From NCBI GenBank assembly GCA_029776065.1, contig JARVJP010000011.1, positions 214,961-278,960 on the forward strand: a DNA stretch of 64,000 nt, read 5' to 3'. The notes below the pieces were generated by a model. It had not been told where the DNA came from, did not search any database, and saw only the letters and a program-made list of their open reading frames with translations. This DNA is from Nitrososphaeria archaeon. Lineage in GTDB: Archaea > Thermoproteota > Nitrososphaeria > JACIWG01. The translations under genes and the position numbers were made by a program. This document shows positions 25,282-64,000 of the stretch, piece after piece (positions within the stretch are counted from its first letter, which is position 1; every line of letters starts with the position of its first letter).

Positions 25282-25890
25282 TTGGTGGTCACACTATACG
25301 AGGTATCAAAGTTAGCTTTAGAGCTAGCAGCTTTAGTGGTAACTGTTCTAGCCTTAATGGTTTCTTATGCTGGCTACTCAAAGACTAAAAAATCCGTTTT
25401 TGCGAGACTTTCTCTAGCTTTTATTGGTCTTTCTGTAAATTTTTTTCTAAATCTACTCGCTGACTCACTTTTTATGTTTGAAGTAATCGAAGACCTTTAC
25501 TATATAAAGCTGATTGCCTCTTTTTTCGAAATGGTCGGGTTCTTCTTTCTAGCTTTCTCCCATATGGTAAAAGTGTATCAAGAAAAGAGGTTTGTAGTTG
25601 CCCCTTTGATTATATTTAATCTAAACGCCGCATTCAAGACGTTGTCGATATATTTCATATTCTACGCAACTCTAGAAACAATGATCACATATTCTCGTTC
25701 TAAATCCCGGATTGTACTATCGACAGCTATTGGGCTGTTGGGCTTTGCCACATATTCTATACTAAGTTGGATTGCAGAGTTTGTCGTTGATCCAACAATA
25801 TATCAGGTTTTCTCCTTAATCTTCCAAGTATTTGGGATTTTAGCCTTCTTTGTTCCGATATGGATATATTATAGGGGTGTTAAAACATAG
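25282..25890 (+). CDS. Hypothetical polytopic membrane protein (6-7 TM)
   Basis: Hydrophobicity pattern. Directly abutting a downstream wHTH protein gene. Confidence 0.5.
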   Translation: MVVTLYEVSKLALELAALVVTVLALMVSYAGYSKTKKSVFARLSLAFIGLSVNFFLNLLADSLFMFEVIEDLYYIKLIASFFEMVGFFFLAFSHMVKVYQEKRFVVAPLIIFNLNAAFKTLSIYFIFYATLETMITYSRSKSRIVLSTAIGLLGFATYSILSWIAEFVVDPTIYQVFSLIFQVFGILAFFVPIWIYYRGVKT

Positions 25891-26172
25891 ATGATGAGCT
25901 ACCGTCACCAAGTCCGTATTGTTTCCGATGTTCTTCTAGCGGTTAAAGAGGGACATGAAGAAGGTGTCGGAATAGCTCAACTTATGCATAAGGCAAACAT
26001 ATCATATGTTCGTGTAACAAAGATTTTGAATGAACTAATCTCAGTAGGTTTAATCGAAGAAATCAGGAACGAAAAATCAACTAAGTATAAAATAACCTAT
26101 CTCGGAATAGAGTACCTTAACGAATATGAACGCTTTTCTACGTTCGCAAAAAACTTTGGTCTTGAAATATAA
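25891..26172 (+). CDS. Small winged helix-turn-helix DNA-binding protein
   Basis: 93 aa. ..GVGIAQLMHKANISYVRVTKILNELISVGLIEE.. typical wHTH recognition helix + wing. Confidence 0.55.
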   Translation: MMSYRHQVRIVSDVLLAVKEGHEEGVGIAQLMHKANISYVRVTKILNELISVGLIEEIRNEKSTKYKITYLGIEYLNEYERFSTFAKNFGLEI

Positions 26173-60575: not shown

Positions 60576-60756
60576 TTTAATCTTAATGCGCATTTACCAC
60601 TTATTAGAAACGTCTTAAAAGATGTTTCCACATCCTATACTTGAATAGGTTTATCATCGATTAAATATTGAGGTCGTTTGATGCTAAACCCAAGTCTTAT
60701 AAATATAAGCCTATTATGGTAATCGCTCCCAAAACCATTATCATCCAAAGATCGAC

Positions 60757-61565
60757 TTATTTTACAGTCTTTAGAGCTCTATCCCTTGTAGGTTCCATTA
60801 AAAGGTAGATAATAGAAAAAAAGAAACCTCCTTCTGATATAAGAACAACTAAAGTCCTTAGAACATCTAGCTTGTTAAATAGATAAAGAAAAATAATTGG
60901 GCCAAATAGAGCTGTTATAGAGTAAAAGACTGAAGCGAGGAGAGCTGCTGTATGAGGTCCATTAATTATTGCAACACTTCTAACGCTCTTAACTCTATCA
61001 CCTTCCATGTCAGCTATGCCTTGGGTTATTTCCCTCCCTAAGTTCGAGAAAAAACTCAAAGTAAATAGTGTAGCTACCGTAAGACCGATAGAATTCGTAG
61101 TTGACAAGAAACCAAAGATAAACGTGATAGAGACGCAATAGGCTACCATTATGTTTCCTAGTAAATCATAACCCTTATCATATAAACTGTAGAGCACTGA
61201 TAAAATAAAAGCAATGCCAATAACATCGCTAACAAGTTTATCATAATGGAAAATAAAGAACCCAATGCAAATAATGTTAAGCCAAAGTAAAGCGTCGCCT
61301 TCTTTGAAACTAAACCACATGGGATGGGCCTATTAGGTCTATTTATACGATCGATTTCAACATCTAAGTAATCATTTATTACAAAGGACGATGCAGTTAG
61401 AAAAACTGAAGTTGAAAATGGAAAGAAGCTTAATGGTAACTCAGGTAATGCCTTTAGAGGAATCACTTGACCGGCAAATGTGACCAATCCTATAAGAATG
61501 GTGCCTAACGGTCGAATCAATCGAATATAAGCAATGAACGAAGGACTATTTAAGCCATATTTCAA
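60757..61565 (-). pseudogene. UbiA-family prenyltransferase of the DGGGP-synthase type, split by a -1 frameshift in a T homopolymer (pseudogene or sequencing error)
   Basis: ORF 61158-61565 encodes the N-terminal half with motif NDYLDVEIDRINRPNRPIP. ORF 60757-61320 encodes the C-terminal half with DMEGDRVKSVRSVAI. Frames switch around 61201-61210. Adding one T restores ...LLALLLFLSVLYSLYDK.... Confidence 0.75.
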
Positions 61566-61800
61566 ACTTAAACCATTTAAATAATATTAACTTATCTATA
61601 TGTCTCTTATTAAAAACTTACAGAACGTCTTACTTATCTCCTATGATATGAGTATAAACTTGGGCGCAAGATATCAATAAGAACTTTGGTCAAATCAATA
61701 TAGTTTCGGTTGTCTAAAACATCGCTACGTTATACTTGTGAAAGCCTCTATTCTTATATCAAAAAGCTTAAAAACCTACTACAAGGAGAGATTAAATTAC

Positions 61801-62718
61801 ATGACTAGAAAAAAGTTTTTGATTTTAACCATAATCATGATAACAACTCTAACTTATACTATGGGACAAGCCTGTGCAGCACCCCTTCCATCTAAAGTGA
61901 AGGCTGGTGTGTGGATAACAAGCATAGACAAAGTAGACCTGGCTGCTGGAACTTATTCGATAGATTTTTATCTTTGGTTCATCTACGATGATGCTCCTCC
62001 TAACTTTGAATTCATCAACGGCGCACCAACTAGAATAGAGAAAACAGTCGAAAGGGAAGGTTACGTTGAATATAGGGTTAAGGCAACATTCGTCCAACAA
62101 TACGATTTCAAGAACTTCCCATTCGATACTCAAAACTTGGATATAATGATTGAAGACAAAACACAGAATATAACTTCGTTAGAATTGATCCCGGATTCTG
62201 AGCAAAGCGGTTTGGATTCACAAGCCTACGTTGTCGGATGGCAACCAAAGGAGTTTACATATCAAAGTTATGTTCACGAATACCCAGGTGAAAACTACTC
62301 CAGATTAGTCTTCACAGTGTCAATACAAAGAGAAATTTTTCCAGTCTTTATGAAAAACTTTGTCCCAATTACTTTGATCACGTTGATAAGCCTGCTATCG
62401 TTTGCAGTTAGCATACAGAACTATTCACAGAGGATATCAATAGGTATAACGACATTGTTCTCGGCAGTTGCATACCATTTGGCAACACTTGGAAGCTTAC
62501 CCCCGCTTTCATATCTAACTCTATTCGATAGAGTTATGTTAGCCATCTACTCCCTATTCCTCTATAACATAGGTGTAAGTGTGCAAGGAATGAGGCTAGT
62601 CGACAAAAAGCAAATAGACAAGGCCATTAGTTTTGAAGATAAAGCGCAAAAACTCCTACCCGTAGTTACTTTGTTCTTGATCATACTCTACACCGTACTA
62701 TTGGCGCCTTTTATATGA
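61801..62718 (+). CDS. Prokaryotic pentameric ligand-gated ion channel homolog (GLIC/ELIC-like Cys-loop receptor family); start at ATG 61801 preferred
   Basis: Signal peptide MTRKKFLILTIIMITTLTYTMGQA. Beta-rich ectodomain with FPFDTQNLDIMIE (cf. GLIC YPFDSQTLHIYL). VGWQPKEFT (cf. GLIC TGWDIESFT). Four TM helices M1-M4. Confidence 0.8.
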   Translation: MTRKKFLILTIIMITTLTYTMGQACAAPLPSKVKAGVWITSIDKVDLAAGTYSIDFYLWFIYDDAPPNFEFINGAPTRIEKTVEREGYVEYRVKATFVQQYDFKNFPFDTQNLDIMIEDKTQNITSLELIPDSEQSGLDSQAYVVGWQPKEFTYQSYVHEYPGENYSRLVFTVSIQREIFPVFMKNFVPITLITLISLLSFAVSIQNYSQRISIGITTLFSAVAYHLATLGSLPPLSYLTLFDRVMLAIYSLFLYNIGVSVQGMRLVDKKQIDKAISFEDKAQKLLPVVTLFLIILYTVLLAPFI

Positions 62719-63544: not shown

Positions 63545-63562
63545 GAAAGTATTTAAATTAGA
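63545..63562 (+). promoter_or_regulatory. TATA-like promoter element for leaderless heliorhodopsin-like gene
   Basis: AAAGTATTTAAATTA centred ~24 nt upstream of ATG 63578. Confidence 0.35.
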
Positions 63563-63577
63563 TCTGTTTATTTTTTT

Positions 63578-64000
63578 ATGACCTTTAGGAAAAAGCAAGA
63601 AATAATTTCTAGTTCTCCAATATCATTCCGTTATTTAAGACGTCTTAACATAGCAGCAGGCTTTCTACATCTCTCCCAAGGAATAATAATGCTAATCTTA
63701 GGCTCTCTTCTGAAATGGGAGCGTAGCATATACACATTTTACCTAAATATTACTATAATTCAAGGTCCTCCCGTAAAAATAGAATTGGTTCCAAATCCAC
63801 AAGTTATTTTCACTGTGAGCTACTTAGGAGCTATAGTCGCCTCATTTCCACTAATATCTGCTATAGCCCATTTTATGATCGCTTTCGTAGTAAATGACAA
63901 GTACAATGAGAACTTGAAGAAAGGTATGAACCCTTTCCGATGGTATGAATATGCATTTTCCAGCTCTATTATGATAGTGTTGATCGCTCTATTCCTAGGG
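63578..64000 (+). CDS. Heliorhodopsin-like 7-TM protein, N-terminal ~141 aa (3'-partial, runs off window)
   Basis: Not in ORF track because no stop before window end. Translation has 3 hydrophobic helices, His31 and His98, and NPFRWYEYAFSSSIM with Glu124/Ser128. This mirrors the His23/His82/Glu108/Ser112 spacing I recall for heliorhodopsins. Confidence 0.55.
   Translation, partial: MTFRKKQEIISSSPISFRYLRRLNIAAGFLHLSQGIIMLILGSLLKWERSIYTFYLNITIIQGPPVKIELVPNPQVIFTVSYLGAIVASFPLISAIAHFMIAFVVNDKYNENLKKGMNPFRWYEYAFSSSIMIVLIALFLG

What the first reader, a model, noticed from the sequence alone, without database searches (positions are those of the whole stretch)
60757..61565. DGGGP-synthase-type UbiA prenyltransferase interrupted by a single-base frameshift in a T-run
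Two overlapping minus-strand ORFs in different frames carry the two halves of a UbiA enzyme (NDYLDVEIDRINRPNRPIP, then DMEGDRVKSVRSVAI). The frame switch maps to the TTTTATTTTA run near 61201-61210. Adding one T gives a continuous ~270-aa protein (...LLALLLFLSVLYSLYDKGYDLL...).

DGGGP synthase is normally essential for archaeal ether-lipid synthesis. So this is one of three things:
- A homopolymer sequencing/assembly error.
- A redundant paralog decaying into a pseudogene.
- Much less likely, programmed frameshifting.
Basis: seen in the sequence. Interest (0 to 1): 0.55.

Follow-up and report, generated by a model that had tools for sequence, protein, structure and literature searches.

The report
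Decaying archaeal lipid-synthase-type gene (pseudogene)
A DGGGP-synthase-type membrane prenyltransferase gene in a hot-spring archaeon is a genuine, recently broken pseudogene (a 4-base deletion plus a premature stop), and the same gene is broken independently in several related hot-spring populations, which is unexpected for an enzyme type normally needed to make archaeal membrane lipids.

Summary
The two overlapping minus-strand ORFs (61565..61158 and 61320..60757) are the two halves of one UbiA-family gene. Its closest solved relative is M. jannaschii DGGGP synthase.

The lesion is not a single-T slip. Against three orthologs the window lacks 4 nt at 61206-61212.

The window comes from an Illumina/SPAdes MAG (DRTY-6_201705_bins_76, order JACIWG01, 99% complete). 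A second contig in the collection (source label Logan) carries the identical 187-aa fragment. I found no other broken gene among about 68 in the window. No slippery heptamer, downstream RNA structure or conserved shift site supports recoding.

So this is a real, recent pseudogene (dN/dS 0.13 against an intact ortholog).

The syntenic ortholog is also broken, by different lesions, in:
- a sister JACIWG01 population;
- three Brockarchaeota alleles, two of them in one species from the same spring.

Flanking genes are intact in every case. About 85 more distant orthologs are intact.

I could not determine whether the genome holds another DGGGPS.

The parts
60697..61565 (-). Full span of the ancestral UbiA/DGGGPS-type gene, from the TTG start to the ancestral TAA stop. 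It is 869 nt now, and 873 nt = 290 codons once the 4 missing bases are restored.
   Evidence: The nucleotide and protein alignments with intact orthologs L005 (P0001, 290 aa), L009 (P0002) and L013 (P0003) are colinear from start to stop. Pfam UbiA E 3.8e-33.
61158..61565 (-). ORF A. Residues 1-119 are the N-terminal half of the enzyme (TM1-4 and the first Asp-rich motif). They are followed by 16 out-of-frame residues (YQCSTVYMIRVMIY...) and a stop.
   Evidence: The HMM match of this piece alone is E 3.8e-40. The TTG start is shared with L002/L005.
61320..61376 (-). First Asp-rich motif, NDYLDVEIDRINRPNRPIP. N64, D65, D68 and D72 are retained. Ser83 just after it has become Cys.
   Evidence: Coordinates. 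Family invariants. S83C is a window-branch change (16 of 17 homologs have S).
61206..61212 (-). Frameshift site: a net 4-nt deletion within TM4. The window reads GCATTGCT^TTTATTTTA; orthologs read ..TTG TTT ACC TTT ATT TTA. Exact placement is ambiguous within the T run.
   Evidence: 4-column gap; 869+4 = 873 nt, the length of the two closest orthologs.
60757..61320 (-). ORF B, deposited in GenBank as MEM3403144.1 'UbiA family prenyltransferase', 187 aa. The first ~38 residues (MWFSFKEGD...VIGIAF) are an out-of-frame read of the N-terminal half. The rest is residues ~121-270 of the enzyme.
   Evidence: P0004 is identical to this ORF. HMM match E 3.3e-47.
61153..61191 (-). Central Y-x5-K / GN motif, YSLYDKGYDLLGN. 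Three window-specific non-conservative changes (G131D, R133G, G135D) come from five nucleotide changes within 15 nt. Y127, K132, G138 and N139 are retained.
60997..61011 (-). Second Asp-rich motif DMEGD (D187, G190, D191), intact.
60757..60759 (-). Premature TAA stop replacing Gln271 (CAA in L002/L005, CAG in L009). This is the second, independent lesion.
60697..60756 (-). Orphaned 3' end: 19 still-conserved in-frame codons (VDLWMIMVLGAITIIGLYL, aligned to the C-terminal end of the M. jannaschii enzyme) plus the ancestral TAA stop.
   Evidence: It aligns to residues 263-277 of M. jannaschii DGGGPS. There are 2 non-synonymous and 4 synonymous differences from L005.

Best explanation
This is a real, recently inactivated gene (a unitary pseudogene) for a DGGGPS-type UbiA prenyltransferase, in a thermophilic, anaerobic archaeon of order JACIWG01 (class Nitrososphaeria).

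Two genuine mutations destroy it:
- A 4-nt deletion in TM4 separates the first Asp-rich motif from the rest of the active site.
- A C-to-T change turns Gln271 into a stop and removes the last helix.

Neither fragment contains a complete catalytic core, so no active enzyme is expected (inferred). The gene was under purifying selection until recently.

Its loss is not a one-off. The syntenic ortholog has been broken independently, by different lesions, in a sister JACIWG01 population and in several Brockarchaeota (EX4484-205) alleles, while close relatives keep it intact.

The most likely reading is that this gene is dispensable in these lineages (inferred). The presumed reason is that another enzyme supplies the second ether bond of the membrane lipids. 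That enzyme was not found here.
For: **The lesions are in the DNA.**
- 4-nt gap and TAA against CAA/CAG in three orthologs.

**Not an artefact.**
- The source MAG is DRTY-6_201705_bins_76 = JAVZCQ, sequenced on Illumina HiSeq 4000 and assembled with SPAdes --careful (PMC11094006 methods and Suppl. file 5).
- The identical 187-aa fragment, which spans the junction and ends at the TAA, is on a second contig of 50-200 kb in the collection; the protein's sources are NCBI and Logan.
- The UbiA pair is the only same-strand frame-switch pair in the 64 kb.
- 28 of 30 other genes checked have Pfam matches, nearly all spanning most of the profile.
- The gene is not unusually rich in homopolymers: 4.6 runs of 5 or more per kb, against 4.2 for the window.

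**Recent loss.**
- dN/dS against intact L005 is 0.13 (dS 0.62). It is similar before the frameshift, after it, and after the stop.

**Relaxed constraint on the window branch.**
- 25 polarised amino-acid changes against 12 (p about 0.03-0.05).
- These include S83C, A91T and G135D at positions conserved in at least 90% of 21 relatives.

**Recurrence.**
- L002/3/4 (83% aa identity, same synteny): a C deletion at codon ~47, seen in three assemblies.
- L058/L179-L182 (Brockarchaeota JAAOZP01 sp017601225): a 1-nt deletion at codon ~177 plus T5 to T4 at codon ~278, in five assemblies.
- L178, same species and same spring in 2019: a C insertion at codon ~222.
- L039: TCA to TAA at Ser83 plus an extra T.
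- Flanking genes are intact in all of these.
- In the genome scan both truly frameshifted loci fall among the 4 closest relatives, and none among the 75 others. The chance of that is about 0.002 (my own arithmetic).
- All 15 metagenome orthologs of at least 40% identity are intact.
Against: - No reads were inspected. A minor intact allele in the population cannot be excluded.
- All residues that are invariant across the family are still present.
- The polarised N/S excess on the window branch is not significant: 22/24 against 14/28, p 0.20. The decay is therefore very young.
- No second DGGGPS-type gene was found. Two protein searches with the TACK-type and Aigarchaeota-type enzymes returned, in their best 120 rows, no other hit on contigs of 796,201 or 1,699,570 bp.
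- If this really is the only DGGGPS, 'dispensable' needs another explanation.
- L039 comes from a contig of only 2.8x coverage.
Confidence: 0.8

Rival explanations
1. Polymorphic population. The MAG consensus captured a loss-of-function haplotype, while an intact allele persists in the same population and carries the function. The gene is then conditionally dispensable or under fluctuating selection, not lost from the species.
For: - In the Brockarchaeota 90%-identity cluster, intact (287-298 aa) and at least two different broken alleles coexist across samples.
- Two different broken alleles occur in the same species and spring, in 2017 and 2019.
- In JACIWG01, L002 (broken) and L005 (intact) differ by only dS 0.054.
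Against: - No intact version of the window species' own gene exists among about 15 billion proteins. The best full-length hit is 83% identical.
- The window allele carries two lesions plus extra substitutions, which argues for some time spent as a pseudogene.
Confidence: 0.2
2. Sequencing or assembly error: the real gene is intact.
For: - The site is T-rich.
- MAG consensus sequences can contain indels.
- A second frameshifted gene (heliorhodopsin) lies 3 kb away in the same scaffold.
Against: - The data are Illumina HiSeq 4000 with SPAdes --careful.
- The deficit is 4 nt, not a run-length change.
- An independent base substitution creates a stop.
- The same fragment is on a second contig in the collection.
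- No other frame-switch pair exists in the 64 kb.
- Orthologs in other, independently sequenced samples are broken at other sites with intact neighbours.
Confidence: 0.05
3. Recoding. A programmed -1 ribosomal frameshift or transcriptional slippage at the T-rich site, plus stop read-through, yields a full-length enzyme.
For: - The frame change needed is -1.
- In the sister allele L002, the C deletion creates U_UUU_UUU. A -1 slip there would restore exactly the wild-type peptide (my own reading).
Against: - In the window the 0-frame codons at the site (CUU UUA UUU UAU) do not form an X_XXY_YYZ heptamer.
- The 116 nt downstream fold no better than shuffles (z 0.18).
- The shift site differs in every broken lineage, and close relatives have no shift at all.
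- A UAA would also have to be read through.
- Restoring the frame by -1 gives a protein one residue short in a TM helix.
Confidence: 0.03
4. Functional split enzyme. ORF A and ORF B are translated separately and assemble in the membrane into an active two-piece prenyltransferase.
For: - ORF B has its own ATG.
- Its 38-residue out-of-frame leader is hydrophobic (LLWLNIICIGFFIF) and could act as a surrogate helix.
- All invariant catalytic residues are retained in the two pieces.
Against: - The break lies inside a TM helix, not in a loop.
- The C-terminal helix is also lost to the stop codon.
- Other lineages break the gene at quite different places, and some also carry nonsense codons.
- There is no conserved split architecture.
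- The bacterial-type promoter scan shows nothing above chance before ORF B. That scan does not cover archaeal promoters.
Confidence: 0.04

Closest known systems
Digeranylgeranylglyceryl phosphate synthase (DGGGPS, EC 2.5.1.42), e.g. Methanocaldococcus jannaschii enzyme, PDB 6m31/6m34/7bpu
   Same: - Full-length colinear match: query 12-284 to chain 10-277, E 3e-28.
- Same motifs: NDxxDxxxD, Y-x5-K...GN, REI...DxEGD.
- JGI names several homologs of 41-48% identity geranylgeranylglycerol-phosphate geranylgeranyltransferase.
   Different: - Identity is low, judged by eye from the alignment.
- The window copy is broken by a 4-nt deletion and a nonsense codon.
- No member of this TACK subfamily was tested biochemically in anything I read.
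NCBIfam NF009523 (PRK12884.1, 'prenyltransferase' equivalog) and NF009521/NF009522 (DGGGPS equivalogs)
   Same: These are the top three models for the restored protein and for all its orthologs. PRK12884 is also the top model for five of the six other DGGGPS-like proteins tested and second for the sixth.
   Different: Scores are below every curated cut-off: 192 against 269 for the window, and 203-259 against 269 for the orthologs. By NCBI's own rule this is not an equivalog member.
Programmed -1 frameshifting in Archaea (Saccharolobus solfataricus alpha-L-fucosidase fucA1, A_AAA_AAU site; from my own knowledge, not checked here)
   Same: Two overlapping ORFs in the 0 and -1 frames encode one enzyme, in a thermophilic archaeon.
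   Different: There is no slippery heptamer, no downstream structure and no conservation of the site. Intact orthologs exist without any shift, and there is an additional in-frame stop.
Ordinary prokaryotic unitary pseudogenes / recurrent gene loss in natural populations
   Same: - Frame-disrupting indels and nonsense codons occur in an otherwise syntenic, intact neighbourhood.
- Different lesions occur in different lineages.
- Historical dN/dS is low, so the inactivation is recent.
   Different: The gene hit repeatedly belongs to the enzyme family that normally makes the second ether bond of archaeal core lipids, which is usually treated as indispensable.

Membership tests
UbiA prenyltransferase superfamily (Pfam PF01040) | Significant match to the family profile above the gathering score | tested here: met
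   115.3 bits against a cut-off of 34.2, E 3.8e-33, profile positions 5-240 of 250, on the frame-joined protein. Each half also matches a family HMM on its own.
UbiA prenyltransferase superfamily (Pfam PF01040) | Two Asp-rich motifs (NDxxDxxxD and DxxxD) plus the central Tyr/Lys | tested here: met
   N64 D65 D68 D72, Y127 K132, D187 G190 D191 are all present. These columns are invariant or nearly so in the 35- and 21-sequence alignments.
UbiA prenyltransferase superfamily (Pfam PF01040) | One uninterrupted reading frame encoding all TM helices | tested here: not met
   A frame change at 61206-61212 and a premature TAA at 60757-60759.
DGGGP synthase (EC 2.5.1.42) | Score above the curated cut-off of an NCBIfam DGGGPS equivalog model | tested here: not met
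   PRK12882 157.9 against 296; PRK12883 146 against 353; PRK12884 192.2 against 269. Intact orthologs also fall short.
DGGGP synthase (EC 2.5.1.42) | Closest experimentally characterised or solved relative is a DGGGPS | tested here: met
   6m31 M. jannaschii DGGGPS, E 3.2e-28. The next hit is chlorophyll synthase at E 2e-08.
DGGGP synthase (EC 2.5.1.42) | Transfers geranylgeranyl from GGPP to GGGP | not testable with these tools
   Needs an enzyme assay on an intact ortholog such as P0001 or P0002.
DGGGP synthase (EC 2.5.1.42) | It is the only such gene in the genome (which would make it essential) | tested here: inconclusive
   - No other UbiA gene in the 64 kb window.
- No other hit on contigs of 796,201 or 1,699,570 bp in the best 120 rows.
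- The genome is not in the genome-contig collection, so the rest of its 1.73 Mb was not searched.
Programmed -1 ribosomal frameshift site | Slippery heptamer X_XXY_YYZ in the 0 frame at the shift point | tested here: not met
   The 0-frame codons are CUU UUA UUU UAU. Re-pairing after a -1 shift would need UUA to UUU and UUU to AUU (read directly from the sequence).
Programmed -1 ribosomal frameshift site | Stimulatory RNA structure a few nucleotides downstream | tested here: not met
   MFE -17 kcal/mol against a shuffle mean of -17.6, z 0.18.
Programmed -1 ribosomal frameshift site | Shift site conserved in orthologs | tested here: not met
   L005, L009, L013 and about 85 others are unshifted. 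Broken relatives are shifted at other codons: ~47, ~118, ~177, ~222, ~278.
Pseudogene (recent, unitary) | Frame-disrupting lesions relative to intact syntenic orthologs | tested here: met
   A 4-nt deletion and CAA to TAA. The orthologs L005/L002 sit in the same DS / ligand-gated-channel neighbourhood.
Pseudogene (recent, unitary) | Relaxed selective constraint on the lineage | tested here: inconclusive
   Amino-acid changes 25 against 12 (p 0.03-0.05), but polarised N/S is 22/24 against 14/28 (p 0.20). Pairwise dN/dS is still 0.13.
Pseudogene (recent, unitary) | Lesions supported by the underlying reads | not testable with these tools
   Only indirect support: Illumina/SPAdes provenance, and the identical fragment on a second contig in the collection.

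The most novel reading that the evidence does not exclude
This is the only DGGGPS-family gene in these roughly 1.7-Mb genomes. JACIWG01 and Brockarchaeota populations nevertheless persist and spread with it inactivated. They would then either form the second ether bond of their membrane lipids with an unrecognised enzyme, or live on monoalkyl or scavenged lipids. Recurrent loss of the canonical gene would be the genomic footprint of that alternative.
Probability: 0.1. Interest if true: 0.75.

Novelty: new member of a known kind. Interest (0 to 1): 0.35.

Why it matters
**Annotation.** GenBank lists the 187-aa fragment (MEM3403144.1) as a 'UbiA family prenyltransferase'. Presence/absence tables built from Pfam or KEGG hits would therefore score DGGGPS as present in a 99%-complete MAG where the gene is dead. 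The same applies to the split Brockarchaeota entries (MBO3797627/8 and others).

**Biology.** One gene of a nominally essential lipid-biosynthesis family has been knocked out at least five times independently, with at least nine separate lesions. This happened in two orders of hot-spring archaea, always amid intact neighbours, and in one case twice in one species in one spring. That pattern points to redundancy or conditional dispensability of this enzyme in these lineages. The question becomes concrete and testable: which enzyme makes the second ether bond there?

Tried and rejected
1. **Second DGGGPS in the same genome.**
   - The HMM scan of the window found nothing else.
   - A search with an Aigarchaeota-type enzyme (L055) gave no hit on the large JACIWG01 contigs. 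The one 'Nitrososphaeria archaeon' candidate, P0174, belongs to another MAG.
   - A search with the L122-type enzyme, which I guessed might be thaumarchaeal, turned out to be Micrarchaeota. That was wasted.
   - The question stays unresolved.
2. **Literature.** No paper in the library links Brockarchaeota or JACIWG01 to DGGGPS or lipid genes. The supplements of PMC8065059 and PMC10833072 hold no lipid-gene tables. One of them lists the split Brockarchaeota gene as COG0109.
3. **L017.** It looked frameshifted, but it is a run of N with duplicated flanks, a scaffolding artefact.
4. **Mutational-target idea.** I asked whether the gene is unusually rich in homopolymers. It is not.
5. **Promoter/terminator scan.** Nothing above chance. 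It uses a bacterial consensus, so it says little for an archaeon.
6. **The second contig carrying the 187-aa fragment.** It could not be displayed or named.

Full report
**What is in the window**

On the minus strand, the ORF listing gives two overlapping ORFs in different frames: 61158..61565 (135 aa, TTG start) and 60757..61320 (187 aa). The first carries NDYLDVEIDRINRPNRPIP (61320-61376). The second carries NLGREITQGIADMEGDRVKSVRS (60976-61044).

An HMM built from full-length homologs hits only these two pieces among all six-frame ORFs of the 64 kb (E 3.8e-40 and 3.3e-47). The frame-joined protein matches Pfam UbiA (E 3.8e-33).

**What the lesion actually is**

I aligned the DNA with three syntenic or related orthologs: L002, L005 and L009.

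- The window lacks four bases, not one. It reads GCATTGCT^TTTATTTTA where the others read GCGTTGTTTACCTTTATTTTA or the equivalent.
- Filling four Ns gives exactly 873 nt = 290 codons, the same length as L002 and L005.
But the product is one residue short inside a transmembrane helix.

- All orthologs are 285-290 aa and end ...ALKTV(R/K)QVNLWMIMVLGAVTIIGLYL.
- The window has TAA (60757-60759) in place of the Gln codon (CAA in L002/L005, CAG in L009).
- After it come 19 conserved in-frame codons, VDLWMIMVLGAITIIGLYL, and then the ancestral stop at 60697-60699.

The gene therefore has two independent lesions: a 4-nt deletion and a C-to-T nonsense mutation.

**Where the window comes from**

The 187-aa ORF is identical to P0004, which lies on NCBI GCA_038874315.1, contig JAVZCQ010000001.1 (796,201 bp). 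L001 is base-for-base identical to the window over their overlap.

Supplementary file 5 of PMC11094006 lists JAVZCQ as follows:
- MAG DRTY-6_201705_bins_76;
- 99.03% complete, 1.73 Mb, 11 scaffolds, GC 39.96%;
- GTDB c__Nitrososphaeria; o__JACIWG01.

That paper's methods give Illumina HiSeq 4000 reads and SPAdes, with --careful re-assembly. PMC10833072 describes JACIWG01 as the deepest-branching order of Nitrososphaeria, thermophilic and lacking Complex IV.

**Artefact or mutation?**

The evidence against an artefact:
- This is not long-read data.
- The deficit is 4 nt, not a homopolymer-length change.
- The stop comes from a base substitution.
- The exact 187-aa product, which reads across the junction and ends at the TAA, is on a second contig of 50-200 kb in the collection; the protein's sources are NCBI and Logan.
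- The UbiA pair is the only same-strand frame-switch pair with coding signal in the window.
- 28 of 30 other genes checked have Pfam matches, nearly all spanning most of the profile.
- The gene is not enriched in A/T runs.

One other frameshifted gene, a heliorhodopsin, lies just past the window end. I put the artefact reading at about 5%.

**Recoding?**

- The 0-frame codons at the site (CUU UUA UUU UAU) are not an X_XXY_YYZ heptamer.
- The 116 nt downstream fold no better than shuffles (z 0.18).
- Intact orthologs have no shift.
- Broken relatives are shifted elsewhere (see below).
- A UAA would also need read-through.

I put recoding at about 3%.

**Age and constraint**

- Pairwise dN/dS against the intact L005 gene is 0.13 (dS 0.62). 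It is similar upstream of the frameshift (0.10), downstream of it (0.17) and after the TAA (0.11, few sites). The gene was under purifying selection for most of the divergence, so the lesions are recent.
- I polarised the changes with four outgroups. That gives 25 amino-acid changes on the window branch against 12 on the P0001 branch (chi-square p 0.033, binomial p 0.047).
- The window-branch changes include S83C, A91T and G135D, at positions conserved in at least 90% of 21 relatives.
- G131D, R133G and G135D form a cluster next to the central Lys.
- At nucleotide level the polarised N/S ratio is 22/24 against 14/28 (odds ratio 1.8, p 0.20), which is not significant.
- All family-invariant residues are still present.

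Together this is a young pseudogene.

**What kind of enzyme**

- The best solved relative is M. jannaschii DGGGPS (6m31, E 3.2e-28, full length). The next is chlorophyll synthase at 2e-08.
- The best NCBIfam models are PRK12884 ('prenyltransferase'), PRK12882 and PRK12883 (DGGGPS). All are below cut-off for the window protein and for its intact orthologs.
- Other DGGGPS-like subfamilies behave the same way.

'DGGGPS-type' is therefore justified as a resemblance. Membership in a curated equivalog is not met.

**The unexpected part: the same gene is broken again and again nearby**

| Lineage / allele | Lesions | Seen in |
|---|---|---|
| Sister JACIWG01 population, L002/L003/L004 (83% aa identity; same neighbours: deoxyhypusine synthase on one side, a Neur_chan_LBD channel homolog on the other) | Loss of a C at codon ~47 (TTTCTTTT to TTTTTTT). 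The longest remaining ORF starts at Met108, beyond the first Asp-rich motif. | ENA, JGI and Logan assemblies that differ by 1 nt in 12.5 kb |
| Brockarchaeota JAAOZP01 sp017601225, allele 1 (L058, L179-L182) | 1-nt deletion at codon ~177 and T5 to T4 at codon ~278 | Five assemblies, including the 2021 De Anda MAG and JAVZCH, which comes from the same May-2017 DRTY-6 sample as the window |
| Same Brockarchaeota species, allele 2 (L178 = JAVZMO) | C insertion at codon ~222; intact at the other two sites | DRTY-6, December 2019 |
| Third Brockarchaeota-like lineage (L039, SKW236, only 2.8x coverage) | TCA to TAA at Ser83 plus an extra T at codon ~118 | One contig |

Close relatives keep the gene intact:
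- L005/L006 (dS 0.054 from L002).
- P0002, identical in six assemblies.
- P0003.
- Intact 287-298-aa alleles in the same 90% cluster as the broken Brockarchaeota ones.

In every broken case the flanking genes are full length.

In the genome scan, both truly frameshifted loci are among the four closest relatives, and none is among the 75 others. The chance of that is about 0.002 (my arithmetic). All 15 metagenome orthologs of at least 40% identity are intact. L017 looked broken but is an N-gap artefact.

**Interpretation**

- Shown: the lesions, their independence and the intact neighbourhoods.
- Inferred: the gene is dispensable, or only conditionally needed, in JACIWG01 and Brockarchaeota.

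The usual reason would be a second enzyme with the same activity. I could not find one, and I could not search the rest of the genome:
- There is no other UbiA gene in the window.
- The MAG is absent from genome contigs.
- Two further protein searches gave no hit on the large JACIWG01 contigs.

A polymorphic-population version also fits the Brockarchaeota data, and I give it about 0.2. In that version broken haplotypes circulate beside intact ones.

The most novel reading still open is that this is the sole DGGGPS and these archaea manage without it. I put that at about 0.1.

**Verdict**

- A single pseudogene is ordinary. The recurrent, lineage-restricted loss of a lipid-synthase-type gene lifts it somewhat. 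Interest 0.35.

Noticed in passing
window 63557-64000 (+) and beyond; L001 2923-3743 (-) = L173 6923-7743: A heliorhodopsin gene (PF18761) is called as two pieces, 214 + 58 aa. A 1-nt deficit near GCGGGAACC shifts the frame before the last ~60 residues. It is a second broken membrane-protein gene 3 kb from the UbiA pseudogene. The gene is absent at this position in the sister-species locus L002.
   Followed up: partly
L002 5810-5830 (also L003, L004): The C deletion in the sister allele creates AGU UUU UUU C, a perfect U_UUU_UUU heptamer in the 0 frame. A -1 slip there would regenerate exactly the wild-type peptide ...LSFFSFSTSVF.... This broken allele could therefore be leaky.
   Followed up: partly
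L178 (JAVZMO, DRTY-6 Dec 2019) vs L179 (JAVZCH, DRTY-6 May 2017): Two MAGs of the same Brockarchaeota species (JAAOZP01 sp017601225), from the same spring as the window MAG, carry different inactivating lesions in the orthologous UbiA gene. Each is intact where the other is broken.
   Followed up: yes
window 60757-61320 (-): GenBank protein MEM3403144.1 ('UbiA family prenyltransferase', 187 aa) is a pseudogene fragment. Its first ~38 residues are an out-of-frame translation. The N-terminal half has no gene call in the collection's table for this contig.
   Followed up: yes
window 61738-62718 (+): A pentameric ligand-gated ion-channel homolog (Neur_chan_LBD E 1.7e-07; NCBIfam LIC/LGIC_1 below cut-off) sits next to the UbiA gene. 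A gene of matching length (305 aa, Neur_chan_LBD) sits in the same position in sister locus L002; in L005 a 293-aa gene with no Pfam hit on record is there. It is an archaeal member of a mostly bacterial and eukaryotic family.
   Followed up: no
window 61153-61191 (-): Five nucleotide changes fall within 15 nt (GGT AAG AGG TAT GGG to GAT AAG GGT TAT GAT). They give G131D, R133G and G135D beside the conserved Lys132. This is an unusually tight cluster of substitutions, possibly a single multi-nucleotide event.
   Followed up: partly
(genome-contig scan): Neither the window MAG nor any MAG of the P0002 species appeared among the 80 kept loci, although both peptide patterns occur in their genes. 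Other MAGs of the same BioProject are in the collection. The representatives of these JACIWG01 species either lack the gene or are different assemblies.
   Followed up: no
L136 and L139, 2208-2714 and 3001-3804: Two DGGGPS-like UbiA genes lie in tandem on JGI metagenome contigs (29% identity to the query). This shows that some lineages do carry paralogous copies of this enzyme type.
   Followed up: no
window 25282-25890 (+) and 25891-26172 (+): Two ORFs lie in the same frame, separated only by a stop codon followed directly by ATG. The second is a complete HTH_45 winged-helix domain. The first has no Pfam match. They are probably two genes, but an in-frame stop was not excluded.
   Followed up: partly
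L017 3200-3300: A run of N with the same ~17 residues duplicated on both sides mimics a frameshift in a 'binchicken' co-assembly MAG. It is a scaffolding artefact, not a lesion.
   Followed up: yes
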